A DNA stretch of 64,000 nucleotides from assembly GCA_048882045.1 (NCBI GenBank), contig JBHLRZ010000008.1, forward strand, positions 1-64,000, read 5' to 3'. Position numbers and translations under genes: made by a program. The number at the start of each line of letters is the position of its first letter. Position 1 is the first letter of the stretch. The notes under the pieces are model-generated. The model ran no database searches. It had not been told where the DNA came from and was given only the letters and a program-made list of their open reading frames with translations. The DNA comes from Candidatus Thorarchaeota archaeon (GTDB lineage: Archaea > Asgardarchaeota > Thorarchaeia > Thorarchaeales > Thorarchaeaceae). Shown piece after piece: positions 3,364 through 13,718 of the stretch.

Positions 3364-5304
3364 TCACTCAGCCATGTAGGGATCATAATCGAAGTCTATG
3401 TCTGCGTAGCCAACCTCTTTGAGAAGATTCTCAATGGATTCAGCTCCTGTAACCCATGAGAGTTCCCAAGAGTCGTCATCTGTCAGTATCAACTCAACAT
3501 CCGGAAGATCTCCAAGGAGATTGTGATCCATCTCAATCGTGTCCTGATATGCTCCTGTCAGAGCAAGAACAAAGTACGACTTTGAAACATTCGAGAGATT
3601 TCCAACAGGGATGCCATCACCTATCGCTCCTCCAGGAATAGTAATTGGTCTATTGTCTTTGGTGAACCAGATCTTGTCAGTATGTTGCCTATAGAACTGA
3701 GTGATTTCTCCATCAGAATCACAAGTTATGTCCACAAGCCTTACTGTTGTTTCTGGTTGAACATGAAGGTCCTCGATAGGAATCACCGGAAAGTGCTGTT
3801 TTACAAGTACATGATCAGCTATGCTATTGAAAACGCTGAAGTTCCCAATAACTAAGTGTTCAGGGTGCCAGAAGCTTCTCACAAGCTCGTCGAACTTGTA
3901 AGACTTGAGGTTCATCTCCACAAGTTTCTTTCTTGCTGCACTTTCAAGATTGCCAGTAATCATCTCTTGTTCATGGATGAAGTCAATTCCTTCCAAGGTC
4001 AAGCCACTAAATCTTTCATGGAAATCATTCCAGATATCAGCCAGTTCTGGCAAGGATTTGGCTTTCCCAATACATTCTAGAAATCTGAATTCTTCTTGTT
4101 GAGCGGTTTCAGTAACATATTCTCCATCTGGTTTTGGAAAGATAGAACGGACCTCAAGAGCTTCGACAATGACCATAGATGCCAATGCAGTCACACCTCG
4201 ACCTGATTCAATCATGATGTTAGGGGCTGGATAACGTTCATTCTGCTCCTTTAGTTGTGATTGAACACCCTCTAACAGCAATCGTGCATACTGGTACATC
4301 AGGTCTGAAGGTCGAGCACTAATGTAGTCAATTGCTAGGCCACCACCAAAGTCAATGTTCAACAAATTGGTTAGACCTCTATCACGAAGGTCTCCATAGA
4401 TCTTTGTCAGGAGCTTCCCGAGGTCTTTGAATGCAGATATCTCTGTGATTTGAGATCCTGCATGTGCCAGAATCGTCTGGACCGATTCATCAAAACCGGA
4501 TTCTTTCAGTAAGTCAATGACCTCATAGAGGTCATGGATACTGAGGCCAAATTTGGAATCTCTTCCTGATGAGTGAGACCAGTGGCCCTCTACGCTGAGA
4601 TATGGTTTGATCCTAAGAACAAGATTGGTCTTTTTTGGATCAAACCTGTCAACAATGAACCTGGCTTCATGTGATGATTCAATAGAGATAGCGATATTGT
4701 ATCCCTCATTGATGCATTGGTTAATGAGATTCAGGTATTCTAGATCCTTTGCTCCATTGCAGACAATGGGTCTGTGTTTCTCAGTTTGAATTACATGCTT
4801 GATGAGTAGAAGTTCTGCTTTTGTACCTGCTTCGAGACCATAATCTGGATCCGATCGTATTATCGCAGTGACGCAATCCTTTCGTTGGTTTACCTTAACA
4901 GGGTATATCCCAATGAATTTTCCACTATATTCAGTTCCTTCAATTGCCTTGTCAAAGGCCATCTTCAGTTTTTTAATTTGATAGGTTATTAGCTGTGGAA
5001 CTCGAAGGGTGAATGAGGATGCATATCCAGGACTATCACCGTTCATCTCCTTAGTCTTTAAGACCATCTCCTTGAAGGTTATGAATTGGTCTTGAAGCCG
5101 AATTCCAAGCATACCATCGTCTGTAATATCAAGGAAGTGAAGGTCATTCCTGCTTACTCCATAGACTAGTCTAGATTTGTCTAATGACCATGTGTCATCC
5201 ACCAATGCATTCACCCATGCTTGTTTTTCTGTGAGCAGTGAACTATTGTTCTTCTTCCTCTCGGATTGTGTCCAACATTCCTTGAAATGCTCGAGCAAGT
5301 TCAC
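3364..5304 (-). CDS. speA: PLP-dependent biosynthetic arginine decarboxylase (fold type III)
   Basis: YPVKVNQ (PLP Lys), GLEAGTK, HAGSQI, DFGGGL, ESGR, DITCDSDG, GAYQD; true start is probably just after the upstream stop (~5240). Confidence 0.85.
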   Translation of the reverse strand: MNLLEHFKECWTQSERKKNNSSLLTEKQAWVNALVDDTWSLDKSRLVYGVSRNDLHFLDITDDGMLGIRLQDQFITFKEMVLKTKEMNGDSPGYASSFTLRVPQLITYQIKKLKMAFDKAIEGTEYSGKFIGIYPVKVNQRKDCVTAIIRSDPDYGLEAGTKAELLLIKHVIQTEKHRPIVCNGAKDLEYLNLINQCINEGYNIAISIESSHEARFIVDRFDPKKTNLVLRIKPYLSVEGHWSHSSGRDSKFGLSIHDLYEVIDLLKESGFDESVQTILAHAGSQITEISAFKDLGKLLTKIYGDLRDRGLTNLLNIDFGGGLAIDYISARPSDLMYQYARLLLEGVQSQLKEQNERYPAPNIMIESGRGVTALASMVIVEALEVRSIFPKPDGEYVTETAQQEEFRFLECIGKAKSLPELADIWNDFHERFSGLTLEGIDFIHEQEMITGNLESAARKKLVEMNLKSYKFDELVRSFWHPEHLVIGNFSVFNSIADHVLVKQHFPVIPIEDLHVQPETTVRLVDITCDSDGEITQFYRQHTDKIWFTKDNRPITIPGGAIGDGIPVGNLSNVSKSYFVLALTGAYQDTIEMDHNLLGDLPDVELILTDDDSWELSWVTGAESIENLLKEVGYADIDFDYDPYMAE

Positions 5305-6715
5305 CTATCTCATCATCTTGAGCAATATACTCTGAGTCTACTTGGAGATCTGACGTGTCAAGCGGCTGATCTCGTATCCTCGCAGCGACATTTCGTTCTG
5401 CTAGGTTCATTAGATATTGCAATGGCCTAGTAATAGTATTCGAAATGGCAACAGCGACTGCTCCCGCTACTATTATACCTCCAATAGTGACCAACAGGAT
5501 GTACTGAGCAGCAGCATCGTTCTGAGCTGCAATACGTGCTTCAAGCTGAGGAATGCTCTCCAGGACTTCCACGAGTGGTACTGAGATCACACAGATGTAA
5601 TCTCCTTTTCCAACCTGAGTGAAGACAAGAATACTCTCATTGTTGTTTCGAGTGTATCGTAGAGTTCCAGAGATACCTTCAGCTACCGAGATAATCTGAC
5701 TAACTTGGTTGCTAGTGAGTGCATCACTGAAGTCCGTCTGGTCATTAATCTCCACATCCTGCAGTGGTGGTAGTCCAGCAATGTAATCCTCATCAGCAAC
5801 TTCTGGATGTGCCACCACGCCGCCTGTAGAATCTAAGAGGAATGCATATCCACTCTTGAGAACCTCCACGTTGATGATTTTCTCTCGAATGTCCTCTATG
5901 GTGATGTCACCTGAAATAACAGCAAACGGAATGCTGTTTCTATACACAACCTTTCCAATCGAAATCAAAAGCACGTTGTCAAACTCGTCATAATAAGGTT
6001 CTACAAAGACCATATCTCCATTTCCTGCCCAGATTGTCTGGTACCAGTACTCACCTCTTGGATCGTAAGGATCTGCAATTCTTTCCACATCCGACAAAGG
6101 TCCAAGAATACTACCAGGATAATTGATGAAGAGTCCATCATCAGCAAATGCAATGTACAACCATCTGAACTCAACTTGGTTGTGAATCGCTTTGAATATG
6201 TAATCAATATTTGATACACGACCTAGCTTGTCTGCACTTGCAGCTTCGTAAGTTCCGTAATCCGTGGAATCATACCCTTGGACATACCAGCTACTGTAGT
6301 CCCAAGAAACATTGAGACCGTAATTGGTGTCAAAGTGATTGTCCACTGGAGCAGGAGCTGGTGCACCTGGCTCGAACAGACGGTCAAAGTAAACTTCTCG
6401 ATACTCGTAGGTTGATCCTGTAGCAAACAATGCTTCAAGCTCTTCAGCAGCAGCGGCAATCATTCCCTCTGCACTAGCCAGTTTCTGGTTGATGACGAGT
6501 GCTGTCTTCTGAGCTGTTTCATCCATGTTTATTTGAATCTGATTTTCCAGTGCTGCGGAGCTCTGGCTGGTAGTTGAGTTGCCAATCAGATCCACAAATG
6601 TGAGAGAGATGAATCCCGTAGCTGCTAATGACACAAATGAGATTACGATGAAGGTCAGAATGACATTCGTTCTGAATTTTCCCTTCTTCTTGGTTTGGGT
6701 TGATGATTGTACCAT
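5243..6715 (-). CDS. Membrane sensor TM-dCache-TM-HAMP with no cytoplasmic output domain
   Basis: Two TM helices; YDPRGEYWY...VEPYYD...SGD Cache motif; GYAFLLDSTGGVVAHP; C-terminal HAMP (ITRPL...DEIGELARAFQGM) followed by stop. Confidence 0.85.
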   Translation of the reverse strand: MVQSSTQTKKKGKFRTNVILTFIVISFVSLAATGFISLTFVDLIGNSTTSQSSAALENQIQINMDETAQKTALVINQKLASAEGMIAAAAEELEALFATGSTYEYREVYFDRLFEPGAPAPAPVDNHFDTNYGLNVSWDYSSWYVQGYDSTDYGTYEAASADKLGRVSNIDYIFKAIHNQVEFRWLYIAFADDGLFINYPGSILGPLSDVERIADPYDPRGEYWYQTIWAGNGDMVFVEPYYDEFDNVLLISIGKVVYRNSIPFAVISGDITIEDIREKIINVEVLKSGYAFLLDSTGGVVAHPEVADEDYIAGLPPLQDVEINDQTDFSDALTSNQVSQIISVAEGISGTLRYTRNNNESILVFTQVGKGDYICVISVPLVEVLESIPQLEARIAAQNDAAAQYILLVTIGGIIVAGAVAVAISNTITRPLQYLMNLAERNVAARIRDQPLDTSDLQVDSEYIAQDDEIGELARAFQGMLDTIREEEEQ

Positions 6716-6729
6716 TCATAACACCTCCA

Positions 6730-9603
6730 TCAGTAGTCTACAGTTGTCCCTCCCACTTCCAGCTGTGCCATCAGGACTCCAACCTTCTCAAAAGCCCGTT
6801 CTATGTCCAACTTCACATTAGTGCTATCTACCACAGAGATGTATTGTCCCTGTGGAATGTGGTCACAAATCGATTCGAGGAGTTCCTCGGTCGTTATGTG
6901 GTTTCCAGTCCTTGATGACTTGATTCTTCGCTTTGTATCTGCCCTATCTGAGAGCTCGTGACCTACACCTATTATCAGAAGGTTGACATCAAGGTGATGG
7001 TCTCGAATGAATCCCTCGATGGTGAGAGGTCGGTTTCTCTTTAAACGGTCTTTTTCTGTCAAGATACCTTCGAGAACATCCAACGAATACCTCTTCGAAC
7101 TGTTGTCCTGACCGTCAGTCAGAGCAATGACCCATCTGTGTTCACTAGACTCAATCTTCTCAAGCTCTTCTAATGCTCTACCGAGTGCATCATAGAAAGC
7201 CGTAGCATAGTTTGGATACTTCAGCGACATCAGCGTCTTCACAATTGGATTATCCTCCCCATCACTCTCTCCTTTAATTGTGAGAGGAAGAAGTTCTCGA
7301 TACGACGAGTTGAATACAATCACTGAAGCCGCATCTTGAGGATTGACCTGTCCGTAAAATATCTCCAAAGCACCACGCACAGCAGCGCGAATCCTGTTCT
7401 GTGCCTGCATGCTACCTGAGTAATCTATGACGAAGGTTACACTCTTCTTGTACAGGATGGACCTCCTGAGCTTCTCAGCTTGTCGTCTCACATCATGGCT
7501 TGGCTTGTCCATCTGATCTAGAACATCAGCTAGACGCTGCATAGCAAACACAACAAGCCAGAGTTCATCAGTTTCTTTACCGGAAGAGATTGCATTGTTG
7601 TATTCATCTTCAGCTTGCTTCCACCTACCTTGTGCCTGATGTAGCTCTCCCTCATGAAAATGTATGTATGCAAGGCTTCTCATATAGTCAATCGAGGTTG
7701 CAAGTTCCTTTGCTTCTTCAAACTTTGAATGAGCTTGACTGTATCGACCATCCCGCATCATAACGAGTCCCATTGCATCTAATCTTCTCGCGAGGCCGTA
7801 GGAGTTGTCTAGGGTTCGATCAATGGCTTCCGCGTCCTCAAGCAGAGCCATGGATTTGTCTGCGTGTCCTCTGTCCATCTCAGCTAGTGCCATATTGTGG
7901 TAGAGTGATGCAACCCTAATCATAGCATCTTTCTCGTCTGCACCGTCCTCCTTGGACTTCTCCAAAAGACTCTGAGCAATTACCATCGATTGCTCATAGT
8001 AGTCAATAGCATTCTCTGGATCCCCACGTTGTCTGAATACGTTGCCAATGTTCAATAGCATAGTCTGTTGGCCTTCTGGAATCCCCAATCTCTGGCTAAT
8101 TTCTAGGAGATTCTGGTAGTTGGCCAGTGCTCTGTTGAGGTCGCCTCTTATGAAAGCCTGATTTCCAAACCTTGCAGCTTCTTGGAAACTTAACAATGCA
8201 TCAACAGTTGTTCCTACCTCTTCGTACATCGCTCCTGCTGTTGTTACTCCCCTCGTGAAGTCTTGCTTAGCCATCTTCTTCACAAGACGAGTCATCTCAG
8301 AGATTGGTTGTACAACTGCATGTGCTCTGCGATAAGACACTACAATAACTCCTCCAGCTACTAAAGCCAAAACACCACCAAGTGCAATTGTGAGTAAGAG
8401 TGTCTGAGTTGCCACCGATGCCAACATGGCTGTTGCAGGTGCTACTACATCAGAGTCTGGGACTATTACTGCAAGCACATAGTCGGTGTTAGATACATTT
8501 ACGAAAGCCATGTGCCACTGCTGACCGTTCTTCTGAAACTCAATCCGACCTGATTCTTGCGTCAGGACTGTTGATGTGAGTTGAACGTTGAAAGCAACAG
8601 CTTCAGAGCTGGTTGAGGAACCAAACTCAAGTGTAGTTATTGGAGCAGGTTCATCGAAAACATCCAAGTCTGGATGGGCTACGACAACTCCAGTACTGTT
8701 TAGAAGGAACGAGTATCCGTTAGTAAGGACCTTTGTACCCAGAATTTTCTCGTTTATTGTTGCCATTGTGACATCAGCAGAAACTACTCCAATCAATGTT
8801 CCATTGTCAAACCTTACAGGTCTCCCCATCGAAATCACGAGACCTACTGAAGGATCAACGTATGGCTGAGTGAAGACCACACTGTCATCGCTTGGATTCT
8901 GTGCGACAACATTAGTATACCATATCTCCGCATTTGGGTCGTAGTCGATCTCTGGAGGTCCGACCTCTTCGTTGTCATCCCATTGGAAATATATGAGGTT
9001 GTCAAAAGGATAGTTTCTGAAAAGATGCTGATCAGAGATTCCCAGATCGAAACCCATGTACAACCATCTATAGTCTTCGTTCATTTCATGGAGCGCCTTG
9101 AAGATATTCACCATGTTTGAAGACACATCTAGGGCATACTGTGTCCTTGGATTCAGGTCATGGGGATCGTTGTTGTTCCAATATGGTCGCGGCATGTAGT
9201 AGCAATCAGTCTGGAATGTGATGAAGTCCGAGAAATACGCGTCAACAATCTCGGGATCCGTTTCGAATGTCAAATCGCCCCATTGGGGCTCTTCGGATTG
9301 GTCCCAATAATAGCTATATCTTGCTGTAGCATTAATCCTCCCATTGAACAGGTCTTCGCAGTAAGCTTCCATCATATAGACACCGTCGACATAGTTCTGC
9401 CAACGCTCTTCGATGAAGAGTCCTGTATCATTAGAGAGTCTCATTAGGTTGGCCAGTTCTTCGGCCTTTAATTCCTCTGCAGCATCGCCTGCATTTGCAT
9501 TTGCCACATCGATTATTGCAAAAACCGAAAGTGACGCAATCACCAGAATCGGTATCAATGCAACTGCGACAAATGTGACTACAATCCGTTTTGAAATTTC
9601 CAT
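6730..9603 (-). CDS. Membrane receptor TM-dCache-TM-HAMP-TPR-vWA
   Basis: Cache motifs YDPNAEIWY and TQPYVD; HAMP; several TPRs (LLNIGNVFRQRGDPENAIDYYEQS); vWA MIDAS DYSGS..T..LTDG. Confidence 0.88.
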   Translation of the reverse strand: MEISKRIVVTFVAVALIPILVIASLSVFAIIDVANANAGDAAEELKAEELANLMRLSNDTGLFIEERWQNYVDGVYMMEAYCEDLFNGRINATARYSYYWDQSEEPQWGDLTFETDPEIVDAYFSDFITFQTDCYYMPRPYWNNNDPHDLNPRTQYALDVSSNMVNIFKALHEMNEDYRWLYMGFDLGISDQHLFRNYPFDNLIYFQWDDNEEVGPPEIDYDPNAEIWYTNVVAQNPSDDSVVFTQPYVDPSVGLVISMGRPVRFDNGTLIGVVSADVTMATINEKILGTKVLTNGYSFLLNSTGVVVAHPDLDVFDEPAPITTLEFGSSTSSEAVAFNVQLTSTVLTQESGRIEFQKNGQQWHMAFVNVSNTDYVLAVIVPDSDVVAPATAMLASVATQTLLLTIALGGVLALVAGGVIVVSYRRAHAVVQPISEMTRLVKKMAKQDFTRGVTTAGAMYEEVGTTVDALLSFQEAARFGNQAFIRGDLNRALANYQNLLEISQRLGIPEGQQTMLLNIGNVFRQRGDPENAIDYYEQSMVIAQSLLEKSKEDGADEKDAMIRVASLYHNMALAEMDRGHADKSMALLEDAEAIDRTLDNSYGLARRLDAMGLVMMRDGRYSQAHSKFEEAKELATSIDYMRSLAYIHFHEGELHQAQGRWKQAEDEYNNAISSGKETDELWLVVFAMQRLADVLDQMDKPSHDVRRQAEKLRRSILYKKSVTFVIDYSGSMQAQNRIRAAVRGALEIFYGQVNPQDAASVIVFNSSYRELLPLTIKGESDGEDNPIVKTLMSLKYPNYATAFYDALGRALEELEKIESSEHRWVIALTDGQDNSSKRYSLDVLEGILTEKDRLKRNRPLTIEGFIRDHHLDVNLLIIGVGHELSDRADTKRRIKSSRTGNHITTEELLESICDHIPQGQYISVVDSTNVKLDIERAFEKVGVLMAQLEVGGTTVDY

Positions 9604-9649
9604 CTATCTAACACCACTTTATTGTACGAGTCTTATCCTTCAACTCTCT

Positions 9650-11089
9650 TCAACCACTCCAGGTTGCAAGTTCTTTCACCATTTTCTTAGCGAAGTCATC
9701 AACATCTTGTTTCTCTTCTAGAATGAACTCATCCCCTGACAAGGAACCTTTTATCGTCCCCTCTCCAAGTAGGATGATCAGTGTTCGTCGCAGTATTCTG
9801 CGGTCCACTCCTGTTTCATTCTCAAGACGATGAACATCCAGTGTATCAGAACCAACAAGAAGGTCTCTAAGAGTGCCTTCAACTCTTTGAACATCCCGTT
9901 TTGAAGGCATGGGCATCTTCTTCTCGGTTTCCGTTCTAACAAACACATTACCGTCGATATGCCCTTCTATCGCATCACTCTGAATCATTGCCTGAAGGCT
10001 TCTACGAAGATTATACGCCGCTGGTCTTGGTAGTGTTCGTCTAAGTATTCGATCCAGTTCCTTGAGTTTGATTCTCTTGTGCTTCGATGTAATCGAATCA
10101 ATACTTTCTTGGATGTATTCTTCAATTACATATTCTTCAATCATCTCTAACTTGGCGCCGCATGAAGAGCAGGTTGACGCTTCCGGTGATGTTGGAGCAC
10201 CACAGTTTCCACATTTGATTGCTCTTCTATAAAGCACAGTTTTTGTTGATCCAATCTGCTGAAGGATCACCTTCTCAGTACGTGTCGCCTTGCCTGTGTC
10301 TTGAACCTCCCAGAAGCTCAGTTTCCTGTCCTTCGTACTTACAACAAGAAAAGCTACATCTGAGATATCATCAGGAATACCGGTAGCCATTGCTCTTGGT
10401 GTGTCACCAACATCGAGGCGAGTTACTTCGTTCCCATCAATGTCCCACATTCTCAGCGTCGAAGACTGGTCCCCAGTAATGAACATGGTCCGGTCACCAA
10501 ATGATAGCACTGCAAAGACTGACAGATGAGAACCGAGTTGAAGCTCTTTCAGCTGATATCCCGCAGCTGTTAGGACTGTGACAAGTCCTCTTTTGTCAGC
10601 TACAACTACTTCCAGTTCTGTATCCCTAGTAATGTCTTCCAACCAGACATCTGCAACAGGGTCTCTCATTGTTTTAGTGAAGATGGCATCTGTGTCATCA
10701 TTATAGAGAATTACTCTATTGTTCTGAAGTGCAACGACAACCTCGGCTGCATCATCACCATCAATGTCACGTGCATCACAGGCAACAATGTTACTCTCGA
10801 GGCGTATATTCCAGACTGGACTTCCCCTGTGGTCGACAACCAAGACCTTCTTTCCGACTCCTCCCACTAGAGCATCCTTTCCCTCCCCCTCTACGTCCCC
10901 AACAGCAATACATCTGACCTTGCTACTCCATTTTCTTGTGCTGCGAAGGGTACCTTGGGCATCAAAGACTCTCAACCTATCTCCATAGTCTAGCGAGAAT
11001 ATCTGAGTGCTAGCATCCTGTTTCTGACGAACGTACACAGAGTAGACGTTCGCAGATGTAGCCACCTCTGCAACCGAGCGAATCTTCAC
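9650..11089 (-). CDS. Beta-propeller (FG-GAP/WD40-like) + double Zn-ribbon + PCI-like winged-helix protein
   Basis: Repeats GDVEGEGKDALV, DIDGDDAAEVVV, DITRDTELEVVV; CGNCG..CSSCG; LQAMIQSDAIEGHIDG and LLGEGTIKGSLSG; GTG start at 11089 avoids overlap with the HDAC gene. Confidence 0.7.
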   Translation of the reverse strand: MKIRSVAEVATSANVYSVYVRQKQDASTQIFSLDYGDRLRVFDAQGTLRSTRKWSSKVRCIAVGDVEGEGKDALVGGVGKKVLVVDHRGSPVWNIRLESNIVACDARDIDGDDAAEVVVALQNNRVILYNDDTDAIFTKTMRDPVADVWLEDITRDTELEVVVADKRGLVTVLTAAGYQLKELQLGSHLSVFAVLSFGDRTMFITGDQSSTLRMWDIDGNEVTRLDVGDTPRAMATGIPDDISDVAFLVVSTKDRKLSFWEVQDTGKATRTEKVILQQIGSTKTVLYRRAIKCGNCGAPTSPEASTCSSCGAKLEMIEEYVIEEYIQESIDSITSKHKRIKLKELDRILRRTLPRPAAYNLRRSLQAMIQSDAIEGHIDGNVFVRTETEKKMPMPSKRDVQRVEGTLRDLLVGSDTLDVHRLENETGVDRRILRRTLIILLGEGTIKGSLSGDEFILEEKQDVDDFAKKMVKELATWSG

Positions 11090-11159
11090 TTTTTTACCTG
11101 CACCCTTATGCACACTTGTTCCTAAGCCATATAAGTGTGCACAGATTTCGAGCAGAACA

Positions 11160-12242
11160 ATGAAGAATGCTAACAAATGCAAGGTTGGTTTTGTCTGGAA
11201 CCCTTCATTGGAAACCTTCGATTTTGGAACGAAGCATCCAATCAAAGTGGGAAGATTTCAAATGGTACGTGATTTTCTGGCCGCACATGACTTCCTTGAT
11301 CAATCTAACGTTGAGATTCTAAAACCCGAACCACTTTCTGATGACTTGTTGAAGAAGATCCACGCACAGAAGTATCTGGATGCTGTTCGCAGAATGTCTG
11401 AAACCGGTGAAGGTGAGATTGCCATCGACACGCCTGCATTTCTTGGTATATATGACAATGCGAGCATCACTTCTGGAGCTACTGTAACTGGAGTAAGGGC
11501 TGTTGCCAGCGGGAAGGTGAACCATTTCTTATCTCCTACTGGCGGATTCCATCATGCAAAGTTTGAATGGGGCGGAGGATTCTGTATCTTCAATGATGTT
11601 GCTGCTGCTGTATACAAGTTGAAGGATTTTGGTTACCAGAAAATTCTCATTGCTGACTTCGATGTTCATCACGGAAATGGAACTCAGACATATTTCTATG
11701 ATGATCCCAAGGTCATGCAGATTTCGTTCCACGAGGAACCAGAATGGATGTATCCCCATGATGGTTTCATAGATGATATCGGTGAAGGTCCCGGTCGTGG
11801 ATTCAATATCAACGTACCTTTTCCAATGGACTCATGCGATGGTGTATATCGATATGCGTTTGATGAGATTGTACCACCACTCATCGAGTTTTTCCAACCT
11901 GACTTCACCATCTTTTTACCCGGTTTCGATGCCCATTACATGGATCGTCTTGCACACCTTAATCTAACCACTGACCTGATTCGATACATTACTGAATTCT
12001 TTCATAATGCTGCACATAGACTAAGTGAAGGTCGTCTTGGTGTCTTAGCTGGGGGTGGATATACAAATGACTCCTTCAAGTGGGGACTTGGGGTTGTCAT
12101 GTCGATCCTTACTGGGTTCGATTATGAACCACCCAAACAAGAACCACCCTACGATGATGATGAAGAAACATGGGATTTGGTACGTGCCAATGTAGAGAAA
12201 ATCAAGAAACTAGTCTTTCCTTTACATGACATCCCATATTGA
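11160..12242 (+). CDS. Histone deacetylase / AcuC family Zn-dependent deacetylase
   Basis: HP, GGFHHA, GFCIFND, DFDVHHGNG, GFDAH, GGGY motifs. Confidence 0.93.
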   Translation: MKNANKCKVGFVWNPSLETFDFGTKHPIKVGRFQMVRDFLAAHDFLDQSNVEILKPEPLSDDLLKKIHAQKYLDAVRRMSETGEGEIAIDTPAFLGIYDNASITSGATVTGVRAVASGKVNHFLSPTGGFHHAKFEWGGGFCIFNDVAAAVYKLKDFGYQKILIADFDVHHGNGTQTYFYDDPKVMQISFHEEPEWMYPHDGFIDDIGEGPGRGFNINVPFPMDSCDGVYRYAFDEIVPPLIEFFQPDFTIFLPGFDAHYMDRLAHLNLTTDLIRYITEFFHNAAHRLSEGRLGVLAGGGYTNDSFKWGLGVVMSILTGFDYEPPKQEPPYDDDEETWDLVRANVEKIKKLVFPLHDIPY

Positions 12243-12356
12243 CGCCAATCTAACATAGTCATGAAGGATACCCTCTTAATGACCCTTGTCAGGTTTCTAT
12301 AGAAGGATGTATATGAGGTTCTGACAAAAGTGCGAGAATAACCTGGAGTTTCGGTC

Positions 12357-13718
12357 ATGCTAGTGAGAGAAGATGTATGCAATCCTTCGAGGTGCTCATT
12401 AGAGTGTGTGAGTGCTTGTAGGACCGTGCATGGTGCTGTTGAAACACCACTCGTCTTTCATGGAGAACTCAATCATCCGACCATCAATTCAGCCAGCTGC
12501 ACCCTATGTCTTGCTTGTCTTCGTACATGTCCGTTCAATGCAATCTCTCTTTCCTCTCAAATATCCGTTACGAAAGATTTTGGACCTTGGGCTGATGTCC
12601 CTCTGTCTGAAACCCGTCCGTACGAAGTCGAATCTTCAATCTCTCCTATGTCTGAAGCAGACACAATTTTTGCTAGGGTCCAGTATGATCCGGAGTATGA
12701 ATTCTATCAAAAGACGGAGTTTTCCGGCGCTGAAGTCATGATTGGTAAGAATATTCCTGGCTATGGTCGTTTCGAAAACGAACTTAGTATTGCCGCTTGG
12801 AAGCTCTATGATTCGCGTGAATCGATTAAAAGATCAGGTATCGGTCTCGACTCAGATGCAAGGGAGCAGGGAGAGATTCATGAGAAACATTCTAAGACAC
12901 TCACTTCCATGGTTAAAAAAGCGGCAAAGTTCTTTGGAGCTAGCATGGTAGGAGTCGCTCCTCTGGATCGGAATTGGATTTATTCCGTGAACAGAAGAGG
13001 AGAGCCATATGATGTTCCTGATAGCTATCAATTTGCCATAGTCATGGCTGTTGAAATGGACTATGATGCGATTGCCACATCACCTGCTTTCACAAGTTCT
13101 GCAGCGACAGGTCTAGGTTATTCAATGATGGCATTCATTGAGCTCGAACTTGCAGCATTCGTTCAGCGACTGGGATACAATGCGATTACTTGTGGGAATA
13201 ATGTCGCACTTAGTGTGCCACTTGCGATTGATGCAGGACTTGGACAATATGGTCGGCATGGTCTTCTGATTACAAAACCATATGGTCCTCGAGTCAGAAT
13301 TGCCAAAATTCTCACAGACATGCCTCTAAAGAGAGACTATCCTGACCCAGGTTTTTGCAGATCTGTTATACAGTTTTGTGAAACTTGTAAAAAATGTGCA
13401 ACTAATTGCCCTTCACAATCAATCCCATATTACAAGGAACAGACTTGGCAAGGAACATCCAAATCAAACAACTCCGGCATCAAGAAATGGTATGTCGATG
13501 TGGAGAGCTGCTACGGATTTTGGGTGGAGAATGGATCAGAGTGCTCTAACTGTATTCGATCGTGTCCATTTAACAAGAAAGATGGTTTCTTCCATCGGAC
13601 TGTTCTTTGGCTTGTCCAACATATGTCTTGGTTGAATCGTCTGATTGTATTAATGGATGATTTTGCTGGCTATGGGAAACAAAAGGACAGTAGTACATTT
13701 TGGAAAAAATTCAGGTGA
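12357..13718 (+). CDS. rdhA: Reductive dehalogenase-like corrinoid Fe-S protein with N-terminal RLI-type ferredoxin domain
   Basis: VKKAAKFFGASMVG, AIDAGLGQYGRHGLLIT..YGPRVR, FCETCKKCATNCP, CYGFW..ECSNCIRSCP. Confidence 0.8.
   Translation: MLVREDVCNPSRCSLECVSACRTVHGAVETPLVFHGELNHPTINSASCTLCLACLRTCPFNAISLSSQISVTKDFGPWADVPLSETRPYEVESSISPMSEADTIFARVQYDPEYEFYQKTEFSGAEVMIGKNIPGYGRFENELSIAAWKLYDSRESIKRSGIGLDSDAREQGEIHEKHSKTLTSMVKKAAKFFGASMVGVAPLDRNWIYSVNRRGEPYDVPDSYQFAIVMAVEMDYDAIATSPAFTSSAATGLGYSMMAFIELELAAFVQRLGYNAITCGNNVALSVPLAIDAGLGQYGRHGLLITKPYGPRVRIAKILTDMPLKRDYPDPGFCRSVIQFCETCKKCATNCPSQSIPYYKEQTWQGTSKSNNSGIKKWYVDVESCYGFWVENGSECSNCIRSCPFNKKDGFFHRTVLWLVQHMSWLNRLIVLMDDFAGYGKQKDSSTFWKKFR

What the first reader, a model, noticed from the sequence alone, without database searches (positions are those of the whole stretch)
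6041..8946. Both Cache sensors replace the carboxylate-binding Arg with Glu, suggesting amine (agmatine-like) ligands
Seen: YDPRGEYWY and YDPNAEIWY, with the downstream Y-x-D and final D retained. Known: the amino-acid-sensing dCache_1 motif (YDPRxRPWY in PctA-type receptors) uses that Arg to bind the ligand carboxylate, and the Tyr/Asp to bind the amino group. Inference: the R-to-E change favours decarboxylated or cationic ligands. The adjacent arginine decarboxylase makes exactly such a molecule, suggesting a produce-and-sense loop.
Basis: partly seen in the sequence, partly recalled or inferred. Interest (0 to 1): 0.7.

Follow-up and report, generated by a model that had tools for sequence, protein, structure and literature searches.

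The report
Arg-to-Glu Cache sensor pair beside SpeA
Two neighbouring membrane sensors of a Thorarchaeota genome keep the amino-group half of the universal amino-acid-binding pocket but carry Glu where the carboxylate-binding Arg should be, and this sensor type sits beside an arginine decarboxylase gene across Asgard archaea, which makes them good but untested candidates for archaeal agmatine or polyamine receptors.

Summary
YDPRGEYWY lies at window 6041-6067 (minus strand) and YDPNAEIWY at 8917-8943. They align column for column with YDPRxRPWY of PctA, PctB and Mlp37. Arg126 is replaced by Glu, while Y121, W128, Y129, Y144 and D173 are kept.

The change is a family trait. Position 126 is E or D in all 121 short-receptor homologues. 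It is E (107), Q (13) or L (1) in 121 long-receptor homologues, and never R.

The trio (long dCache-HAMP-TPR-VWA, short dCache-HAMP, SpeA-like gene) recurs in Thor, Heimdall, Hod and other lineages, with different flanks and rearranged order. It is adjacent in 26 of 30 sampled Asgard genomes that carry the pair. Two related pairs whose long receptor keeps Arg126 have no SpeA nearby.

In this genome the SpeA-like gene is the only arginine decarboxylase candidate found. The two receptors are its only dCache_1 proteins.

The ligand is still unproven. I measured no pocket geometry and there is no binding test. A divalent-cation site is a real rival. The direction of the proposed "loop" is open. 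I rate it a new variant of a known sensor kind that can be tested directly.

The parts
6730..9603 (-). Long receptor P0002: TM1 (about residues 3-37), extracellular dCache_1 (about 38-397), TM2 (about 397-424), degenerate HAMP-like linker, TPR repeats (about 476-700) and a VWA domain with a DxSxS MIDAS motif (722-883; VTFVIDYSGSMQ at 7405-7440)
   Evidence: AF2 ectodomain model with pLDDT 87.7.
8917..8943 (-). P0002 N-terminal half of the pocket motif, YDPNAEIWY. Glu226 (8926-8928) is in the Arg126 column.
8773..8862 (-). P0002 amino-group half of the motif: Y248-V-D250 (8854-8862) and D277 (8773-8775)
   Evidence: Y248 is kept in 118 of 121 homologues; D250 and D277 in all 121.
5243..6715 (-). 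Short receptor P0001: TM1 (about 14-41), extracellular dCache_1 (about 42-400), TM2 (about 401-429) and HAMP (424-486). It ends right after HAMP with no output domain. A GGAGGTG ribosome-binding site lies upstream and there are 14 nt between the P0002 stop and its ATG.
   Evidence: AF2 ectodomain model with pLDDT 83.1.
6041..6067 (-). P0001 N-terminal half of the pocket motif, YDPRGEYWY. Glu222 (6050-6052) is in the Arg126 column.
5906..5995 (-). P0001 amino-group half of the motif: Y241-Y-D243 (5987-5995) and D270 (5906-5908)
   Evidence: These are invariant columns of alignment A1.
3364..5214 (-). SpeA-like PLP-dependent arginine decarboxylase. The probable start is GTG at 5214, 28 nt after the P0001 stop. 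The longer ORF reaching 5304 overlaps P0001.
   Evidence: The best PDB relatives are the biosynthetic arginine decarboxylases 3NZP, 3NZQ and 3N2O. It is the only PF02784 match in the genome.
9650..11245 (-). Upstream gene of the same strand: beta-propeller, Zn-ribbon and a C-terminal helical region (start codon uncertain). Homologues accompany both acid-type and Arg-type receptor pairs.

Best explanation
P0002 and P0001 are the two partners of a kinase-less Asgard membrane receptor. It probably works as a heterodimer through the long N-terminal helices of the dCache_1 ectodomains. In both partners the membrane-distal pocket derives from the amino-acid-binding dCache_1AA pocket. The half that clamps a ligand amino group is kept (Y144, D173, plus Y-x-D), and so are W128, Y129 and Y121. 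The Arg that clamps the alpha-carboxylate is replaced by Glu or Asp, often followed by a second acidic residue. I infer that this turns the site into a strongly anionic, aromatic-lined pocket for a protonated amine without a carboxylate. Agmatine, putrescine or a related polyamine is the most likely ligand. Ligand binding would be passed through TM2 and HAMP to the cytoplasmic TPR-VWA scaffold and to accessory beta-propeller, Zn-ribbon or HEAT proteins. The system is functionally coupled to the adjacent SpeA-like arginine decarboxylase, the only arginine decarboxylase candidate found in this genome. It most likely matches agmatine and polyamine synthesis to the external supply, or reports the cells' own released product. 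Shown here: the motif, its conservation, the fold, the gene linkage, and the match between pocket type and SpeA linkage. Inferred: the ligand class, signalling through the scaffold, and the direction of coupling.
For: 1. Motif and alignment to PctA, PctB and Mlp37.
2. Position 126 is acidic in 121 of 121 short-receptor homologues and never Arg in 121 long-receptor homologues. W128, Y129, Y144 and D173 are kept.
3. Both AF2 ectodomain models are confident (pLDDT 83 and 88). [quoted passage not shown]
4. The trio long receptor + short receptor + SpeA-like recurs with unrelated flanks, and with changed order or orientation. It is seen in Thor (L001-L004), Heimdall (L006), Hodarchaeales (L007), L008, L009, L026, L027 and the separate clade of L030.
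5. In a sample of 151 Asgard genomes, 30 carry the pair. SpeA-like is directly adjacent in 26, lies 6 kb away in 1, and is unresolved because of contig ends in 3.
6. In SpeA-linked pairs position 126 is E, D, Q, W, F or Y and never R. Two pairs whose long receptor keeps Arg126 (L031, Arg in both partners; L028, Arg in the long and a degenerate pocket in the short partner) have a beta-propeller gene but no SpeA within 7 kb.
7. The trees put Arg-type and acid-type subclades inside both the long and the short superclade. The switch therefore happened in parallel in the two partner lineages.
8. After position 126, the columns that best separate the types are 244 and 127 (P or G becomes D or E). 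The pocket segment has mean net charge -5.9 in acid-type against -2.0 in Arg-type domains.
9. The own genome is 93% complete. It shows no pyruvoyl arginine decarboxylase and no AdoMetDC homologue. SpeA-like is its only PF02784 gene. TiaS and deoxyhypusine synthase are present, so agmatine is needed. The two receptors are its only PF02743 hits.
10. Published precedent: the dCache_1 receptors TlpQ and McpU bind agmatine at 150 nM and 0.48 uM in a highly negative pocket. The primary amine is held by Tyr, Asp and Asp, and a Glu holds a second nitrogen (PMC6234866).
11. The heterodimer model of the two ectodomains supports binding. The score is 0.87 against 0.00 for the best of 3 controls. That mark was reached by 58 of 80 solved complexes and 2 of 110 mismatched pairs. 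The runs agree in at least 84% of contacts and the partner pLDDT is at least 84. The interface runs along the N-terminal helices and leaves the pocket residues free.
Against: No binding data exist and I inspected no model coordinates. The placing of Glu in the pocket rests on homology alone. Some SpeA-linked lineages have Gln or an aromatic residue instead of an acid at position 126. The window's own P0002 lacks the second acidic residue that is usual in its family (E-I instead of E-D/E). About nine sampled genomes have a SpeA-like gene without the receptors, so the enzyme does not need them. One Arg-type long receptor (P0283) has an unidentified 611-aa gene just upstream and no DNA could be fetched, so the type-to-SpeA rule rests on two clean Arg-type cases. 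TlpQ and McpU are not among the top sequence or fold matches. The equivalence of TlpQ Glu170 to position 126 could not be tested. The tested dCache_1AM amine sensors did not bind agmatine or putrescine (PMC10589655), so an amine pocket does not by itself mean polyamine binding. SpeA-like is cytoplasmic and the cluster holds no exporter. Gene linkage shows functional coupling, not ligand identity. The complex pass may reflect likeness to solved dCache dimers, and it cannot tell a heterodimer from a homodimer.
Confidence: 0.5

Rival explanations
1. The pocket is a site for a divalent or inorganic cation (Mg2+, Ca2+ or similar), not for an organic amine. Three or four carboxylates (E222, often D/E223, D243, D270) plus Tyr hydroxyls would chelate a metal. 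The receptor would adjust polycation (polyamine) synthesis to the external supply of divalent cations.
For: The conserved residues cluster as carboxylates and the segment is strongly negative. Linkage to SpeA fits equally well, because polyamines and Mg2+ can partly replace each other as cellular polycations (general knowledge). dCache_1 domains that bind inorganic ions are mentioned in PMC10589655.
Against: The aromatic residues of the amino-acid pocket (Y121, W128, Y129, Y144) are fully retained, which suits an organic ammonium group better than a bare metal. The f12 lineage replaces the acid at position 126 with W, F or Q while keeping SpeA nearby. That change favours cation-pi binding of an amine and removes a metal ligand.
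Confidence: 0.15
2. The receptors sense the substrate side: arginine or another basic amino acid or peptide. The guanidinium or epsilon-amino group would be held by the new Glu in a non-canonical pose. SpeA would then be tuned to substrate availability.
For: The nearest solved relatives all bind amino acids, including Arg (PctB 5LT9, and 6IOT and 6IOV with arginine). Substrate sensing next to an enzyme gene is common.
Against: Canonical Arg126 pockets already bind arginine well, so loss of Arg126 is not needed. R126A lowers amino-acid affinity 61-fold in PctA (PMC8915833). A Glu in that place would repel an alpha-carboxylate. The two related pairs whose long receptor keeps Arg126, which are the expected amino-acid sensors, are the ones not linked to SpeA.
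Confidence: 0.12
3. The pocket no longer binds a small molecule. The two proteins would act as a membrane scaffold or anchor for cytoplasmic partners, and adjacency to SpeA would reflect only co-transcription or inherited gene order.
For: No enzymatic output domain is present; there are only HAMP, TPR, VWA, HEAT and beta-propeller modules. One related short partner (L028) does have a degenerate motif.
Against: W128, Y129, Y144, D173 and the acidic position 126 are invariant or nearly so down to 34-57% identity and across Asgard classes. This argues for selection on the pocket. The linkage survives rearrangement and complete turnover of the flanks, so it is not simple inherited synteny.
Confidence: 0.1

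Closest known systems
dCache_1AA amino-acid sensors (PctA, PctB, PctC, Mlp24, Mlp37, Tlp3; Gumerov et al. 2022, PMC8915833)
   Same: Same fold and closest sequence and structure relatives. Same motif frame, Y-x4-[R]-x-W-Y ... Y ... D, with Y121, W128, Y129, Y144 and D173 kept and the same 15-residue spacing.
   Different: The defining Arg126 is Glu or Asp. The pocket segment is about 4 charges more negative. The ectodomain is about 100 residues longer. The output is HAMP alone or HAMP-TPR-VWA, rather than an MCP, kinase or cyclase domain.
TlpQ / McpU polyamine and histamine chemoreceptors of Pseudomonas (PMC6234866)
   Same: They are dCache_1 domains that bind agmatine, putrescine, cadaverine and spermidine in a highly negative distal pocket. 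The primary amine is held by Tyr, Asp and Asp (Y208/D210/D239, the Y-x-D ... D pattern), and a Glu (E170) contacts a second nitrogen. This is the binding mode proposed here.
   Different: They are not close in sequence or in the fold ranking (absent at E<=1, and from the top 50). I could not test whether E170 corresponds to position 126. They are methyl-accepting chemoreceptors of bacteria, and I know of no reported link to a decarboxylase gene.
dCache_1AM amine sensors (PctD, PacA, McpX, M. mazei HK 3LIB; Cerna-Vargas et al. 2023, PMC10589655)
   Same: They also derive from dCache_1AA by loss of the carboxylate-binding residues while the W/Y pair and the final Asp are kept. They bind cationic amines.
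   Different: In AM domains Y121 and R126 are not conserved, and there is an upstream insertion with an R103-D133 pair and a cation-pi aromatic. The ligands are small methyl-, ethyl- or quaternary amines, and agmatine and putrescine did not bind. Among archaea they were reported only in Halobacteriota. The Asgard domains keep Y121, have a conserved acid at position 126, and are closer to AA-type structures.
Eukaryotic alpha2delta / CACHD1 (dCache_1 plus VWA)
   Same: They combine dCache_1 and VWA in one polypeptide. alpha2delta chains are among the best Foldseek matches. Some relatives give weak VWA_N hits.
   Different: In alpha2delta the VWA is inserted inside the extracellular Cache domain and Arg is retained (gabapentin and Leu binding). 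Here the VWA is cytoplasmic and C-terminal, after TM2, HAMP and TPR.

Membership tests
dCache_1 (Pfam PF02743) | Profile match over the curated cut-off, and a double PAS-like fold with a long N-terminal helix between two TM segments | tested here: met
   P0002 scores 52.4 bits against a cut-off of 45. P0001 scores 44.4 bits as a protein (just under) and 46.0 bits in the genome search. The AF2 models were searched with Foldseek for P0001 only: E about 1e-11 to Mlp24, PctA, PctB and Tlp3. TM segments flank the domain.
dCache_1AA (amino-acid sensor) | Arg at PctA position 126 contacting the ligand carboxylate | tested here: not met
   Glu222 in P0001 and Glu226 in P0002. There is no Arg in 242 family homologues.
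dCache_1AA (amino-acid sensor) | Y121 and W128 (carboxylate side), Y144 and D173 (amino side), with 13-17 residues between the motif halves | tested here: met
   P0001 has Y217, W224, Y241 and D270. P0002 has Y221, W228, Y248 and D277. The spacing is 15 residues.
dCache_1AM (amine sensor, Cerna-Vargas 2023) | AM_motif: upstream insertion with an R103-D133 pair, a cation-pi aromatic, loss of conservation at Y121 and R126, and a hydrophobic M215 and S217 | tested here: inconclusive
   The full motif exists only as a figure and I could not map it column by column. Y121 is conserved here, unlike in AM domains. PDB sequence ranking puts AA-type domains (PctB, 4.6e-10) ahead of 3LIB (5.6e-7) and 7PSG (6.6e-4).
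TlpQ/McpU-type polyamine dCache | Primary amine held by Y-x-D plus a distal Asp; an extra Glu for the second nitrogen; a strongly negative pocket | tested here: inconclusive
   Y-x-D and the final Asp are present, and the segment charge is -5.9 against -2.0. No TlpQ or McpU sequence or alignment was obtainable, so residue equivalence is untested.
Biosynthetic arginine decarboxylase SpeA (NF003763 / TIGR01273) | Score over the equivalog cut-off; PLP-Lys motif (YP[VL]KVNQ), GGGL..DY, ESGR and CDSDGE motifs | tested here: inconclusive
   The scores are 339.8 bits against a cut-off of 369, and 329.4 against 624, both below the equivalog cut-offs. The motifs are present and the three best PDB relatives are all SpeA enzymes (1.4e-59 to 1.6e-46). 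Substrate specificity was not tested.

The most novel reading that the evidence does not exclude
The acid-for-Arg126 switch defines a previously undescribed amine- or polyamine-specific subclass of dCache_1. It is distinct from dCache_1AM and from TlpQ/McpU. It arose in parallel in both partners of a heterodimeric, kinase-less Asgard receptor (dCache-HAMP-TPR-VWA plus dCache-HAMP) that is genetically locked to the cell's only arginine decarboxylase. That would make it the first receptor for polyamine homeostasis or signalling in archaea, in the lineage closest to eukaryotes.
Probability: 0.35. Interest if true: 0.8.

Novelty: new variant of a known kind. Interest (0 to 1): 0.62.

Why it matters
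Ligands are unknown for almost all archaeal receptors. The published amine-sensing dCache class was found in only one archaeal phylum, and a commentary on that work asks why it has not spread more widely in archaea (PMC10655580). If this reading holds, a one-residue signature would assign a ligand class to a conserved Asgard receptor pair: Y-x4-[ED]-x-W-Y with Y144 and D173 kept. It would give the first handle on how Asgard archaea monitor agmatine and polyamines, which they need for tRNA-Ile agmatidine and for aIF5A modification. It would also expose a signalling route that uses only scaffold domains (HAMP, TPR, VWA, beta-propeller, HEAT), with no kinase, MCP or cyclase. The natural contrast between Arg-type pairs without SpeA and acid-type pairs with SpeA offers a ready-made experimental control.

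Tried and rejected
1. Direct comparison with TlpQ (6FU4) and McpU (6F9G). They do not appear in phmmer PDB hits at E<=1 or in the Foldseek top 50. I could not obtain their sequences, and the papers give no residue mapping to PctA. The equivalence of TlpQ E170 to position 126 stays open.

2. Pocket geometry. The tools return no model coordinates, so the refuting test 'Glu outside the pocket' could not be run. Only homology and local pLDDT are available (about 91 around E222 and about 88 around E226).

3. The HDAC-like neighbour (11160-12242) as an acetylpolyamine amidohydrolase. Its best PDB matches are HDAC6 and HDAH (1e-60 to 1e-45) and APAH scores only 4e-32. There is no NCBIfam hit, and the neighbourhood is kept only within Thor. 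I do not count it as polyamine evidence.

4. A C-terminal D-P-Y-[MIL] tail of SpeA-like as a docking motif for the receptor. It is clearly present in 10 of the 11 linked copies (the eleventh, L026, has only FPNM). It is also present in 4 of 10 unlinked ones, with a variant (DDSYY) in a fifth, and it is absent in L014, L018 and L019. Inconclusive.

5. Direct binding of SpeA to TPR-VWA. I judge it less likely because Arg-type pairs without SpeA carry the same TPR-VWA output.

6. Context of the Arg-type receptor P0283. No DNA was available and the 611-aa upstream gene is unidentified.

7. SpeD-derived arginine decarboxylases (PMC10407285) as a hidden second enzyme. There is no PF02675 match in the genome.

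Full report
**What is in the window.** On the minus strand four genes follow each other closely.
- A protein with a beta-propeller and a Zn-ribbon (9650-11245).
- P0002 (6730-9603, 957 aa).
- P0001 (5243-6715, 490 aa).
- A SpeA-like decarboxylase (3364 to about 5214).

P0002 has the order TM, dCache_1, TM, HAMP-like linker, TPR repeats, then a VWA domain with an intact DxSxS motif. P0001 has TM, dCache_1, TM and HAMP, and stops right after HAMP. Only 14 nt separate the P0002 stop from the P0001 ATG, and a GGAGGTG site precedes that ATG. The likely GTG start of SpeA lies 28 nt after the P0001 stop. Names attached to near-identical database proteins place the genome in Thorarchaeota.

**Check of the observation.** YDPRGEYWY is at residues 217-225 of P0001 (window 6041-6067). 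YDPNAEIWY is at residues 221-229 of P0002 (8917-8943). phmmer against PDB aligns both without gaps on PctB, PctA and Mlp37 (YDPRxRPWY). It then aligns EPY/QPY on Y144 and GDI/ADV on D173. By alignment, Glu222 and Glu226 therefore occupy the Arg126 column. Y121, W128, Y129, Y144, D146 and D173 are retained, and the spacing of the motif halves (15 residues) is canonical. Y121, R126 and W128 hold the carboxylate and Y144 and D173 hold the amino group. R126A costs PctA 61-fold in affinity and D173A abolishes binding (PMC8915833).

**Is it more than chance?** Among 121 homologues of P0001 (57-93% identity), position 126 is E in 113 and D in 8. W128 is invariant and Y129 nearly so. Among 121 homologues of P0002 it is E in 107, Q in 13 and L in 1. 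The next residue is D or E in 105, and Y121, W128, Y129, D146 and D173 are invariant. By contrast, 112 of 165 domain hits among the 150 best 50%-identity cluster representatives have Arg. AF2 models of both ectodomains are confident (pLDDT 83 and 88). [quoted passage not shown] I could not inspect coordinates. That Glu points into the cavity is therefore inferred from the 7-of-9 identical motif, not measured.

**The decarboxylase link.** Thor relatives at 57-70% identity show the same four genes, but also generally conserved flanks. The deeper relatives are decisive.
- A Heimdallarchaeota locus (L006) and a Hodarchaeales locus (L007) carry long receptor + short receptor + SpeA-like with entirely different neighbours.
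- L008 has SpeA upstream of the pair.
- L009 has SpeA on the opposite strand.
- L026 and L027 have SpeA in divergent orientation.
- L030, from a separate short-receptor clade, also carries the trio.

In a sample of 151 Asgard genomes, 30 carry the pair. SpeA-like is directly adjacent in 26 of them, lies 6 kb away in one (G118), and is unresolved in three because contigs end there. The reverse does not hold. About nine genomes have SpeA-like without the receptors (L013-L021). The receptors therefore look like an accessory to the enzyme, not the other way round.

**Pocket type follows the linkage.** In all SpeA-linked pairs position 126 is E, D, Q, W, F or Y, and never R. The amino-group half is invariant. 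The same receptor architecture also exists with a canonical Arg126.
- L031: long YDPRLRPWY plus short YDPRQRTWY.
- L028: long YDPRDRPWY plus a short partner with a degenerate pocket.

Both loci have a homologue of the beta-propeller gene but no SpeA-like gene within 7 kb. A third Arg-type receptor (P0283) has an unidentified 611-aa upstream gene and no retrievable DNA, so the contrast rests on two clean cases. Trees of the ectodomains, built with column 126 removed, separate a 'long' and a 'short' superclade. Each holds both Arg-type and acid-type subclades. This implies parallel switches in the two partner lineages rather than one inherited change. A scan for type-specific columns finds that, after position 126, the best discriminators are position 244 (the residue after Y-x-D) and position 127 (P or G becomes D or E). 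The 61-residue pocket segment is on average -5.9 in acid-type against -2.0 in Arg-type domains.

**Metabolic setting.** The genome is 93% complete.
- It has no pyruvoyl arginine decarboxylase (PF01862) and no AdoMetDC homologue (PF02675), so no SpeD-derived decarboxylase was detected.
- The cluster's SpeA-like gene is its only PF02784 member.
- Two arginase-fold genes, TiaS and deoxyhypusine synthase are present.

Agmatine is thus required, at least for agmatidine in tRNA-Ile, and this gene is the only source found. Across the Asgard sample the pyruvoyl enzyme and SpeA-like are roughly complementary. The Thor family has 0 of 26 against 24 of 26. The two receptors are also the only dCache_1 proteins of the genome. 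SpeA-like scores below NCBIfam's equivalog cut-offs. It nevertheless has the PLP-Lys and substrate-loop motifs, and the three solved SpeA enzymes are its best PDB relatives.

**How it most likely works.** Both ectodomains present a pocket that still clamps an ammonium group (Y241/D243/D270 in P0001; Y248/D250/D277 in P0002). Where the ligand carboxylate would sit, the pocket now carries the protein's own carboxylate, within reach of W128 and Y121. Such a site should reject alpha-amino acids and accept their decarboxylated products or other cationic amines. Published dCache_1 receptors with this chemistry exist. TlpQ and McpU bind agmatine at 150 nM and 0.48 uM in a highly negative pocket using Tyr, Asp and Asp plus a Glu (PMC6234866). 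They are not close relatives, and I could not establish residue equivalence.

The two ectodomains are predicted to pair along their N-terminal helices. The score is 0.87 against 0.00 for the best of three controls. That mark was reached by 58 of 80 solved complexes and 2 of 110 mismatched pairs. The runs agree in at least 84% of contacts and the partner pLDDT is at least 84. This pass may reflect likeness to known dCache dimers, and it cannot separate a heterodimer from homodimers.

Downstream there are only scaffold modules: HAMP, TPR and VWA, a beta-propeller/Zn-ribbon protein and, in one lineage, Zn-ribbon plus HEAT fused to the short partner. How the signal reaches SpeA is unknown. Because Arg-type pairs use the same output without SpeA, direct binding of TPR-VWA to SpeA is not my favoured route.

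**Rivals.** There are three.
- A divalent-cation site built from the same carboxylates.
- Sensing of arginine in a non-canonical pose.
- A ligand-free scaffold.

The retained aromatic cage, and the W/F/Q variants in lineages where SpeA is still nearby, argue against a pure metal site. The Arg-type pairs not linked to SpeA argue against arginine sensing. The deep conservation of the pocket argues against a dead site. None of the three is excluded.

**Comparison with what is known, and novelty.**
- The domains are dCache_1.
- They fail the defining Arg of dCache_1AA.
- They do not look like dCache_1AM, because Y121 is conserved, AA-type structures are closer, and AM was reported only in Halobacteriota among archaea (PMC10589655).
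- They are at most functional analogues of TlpQ and McpU, a class that paper itself calls uncharacterised.

Searches of the paper library found nothing on Asgard dCache receptors linked to arginine decarboxylase. I therefore class the finding as a new variant of a known kind of sensor. It has good comparative support for the ligand class and for coupling to SpeA, and none yet for the exact ligand or the signalling route.

**Earlier notes of this scan.** The first-stage notes on the same window had already flagged three things: the kinase-free receptor cluster, the output-less co-receptor, and the likeness to alpha2delta. Those notes were untested.

Noticed in passing
window 6730-9603; L008 8001-9467; protein P0276: dCache_1 and VWA occur in one polypeptide. 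alpha2delta and CACHD1 chains are among the best Foldseek matches of the P0001 ectodomain model (TM-score by the model 0.58-0.63). Some relatives give weak Pfam VWA_N hits. The VWA here is cytoplasmic, unlike in alpha2delta. This may bear on where the eukaryotic Cache-VWA combination came from.
   Followed up: partly
L024 296-2305 (-); L025 2694-4652 (+): In one Asgard lineage (family f12) the short receptor is 650-670 aa long. It carries a Zn-ribbon and HEAT repeats after HAMP. In these pairs position 126 is Q (short partner) or W/F followed by Asp (long partner) instead of Glu.
   Followed up: partly
L028 4160-5239; L031 11137-12162; window 9650-11245: A beta-propeller gene homologous to the window's upstream gene accompanies both Arg-type pairs (no SpeA) and acid-type pairs (SpeA-linked). 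It is probably the generic cytoplasmic partner of this receptor architecture.
   Followed up: partly
window 3364-3400 (C-terminus of SpeA-like); loci L001-L027: SpeA-like proteins next to the receptors end in a conserved acidic D-P-Y-[M/I/L] tail (here DYDPYMAE). Three unlinked copies (L014, L018, L019) lack it, but several other unlinked copies keep it.
   Followed up: partly
whole genome G000; Asgard sample of 151 genomes: No pyruvoyl arginine decarboxylase and no AdoMetDC were found in this genome, while TiaS and deoxyhypusine synthase are present. Across Asgard families the pyruvoyl enzyme and SpeA-like are nearly complementary (Thor family 0 of 26 against 24 of 26). This suggests that one arginine decarboxylase type replaced the other, and that polyamine metabolism here centres on agmatine.
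   Followed up: partly
window 11160-12242 (+): A deacetylase of the HDAC family lies divergently next to the cluster in Thor genomes. Its best solved relatives are HDAC6 catalytic domains (about 1e-60), not acetylpolyamine amidohydrolase.
   Followed up: partly
L018 (G026:C1) 8607-13399: A closed Asgard genome without the receptor pair carries two tandem SpeA-like copies. One lies in an 886-aa open frame with an unrelated C-terminal extension.
   Followed up: no
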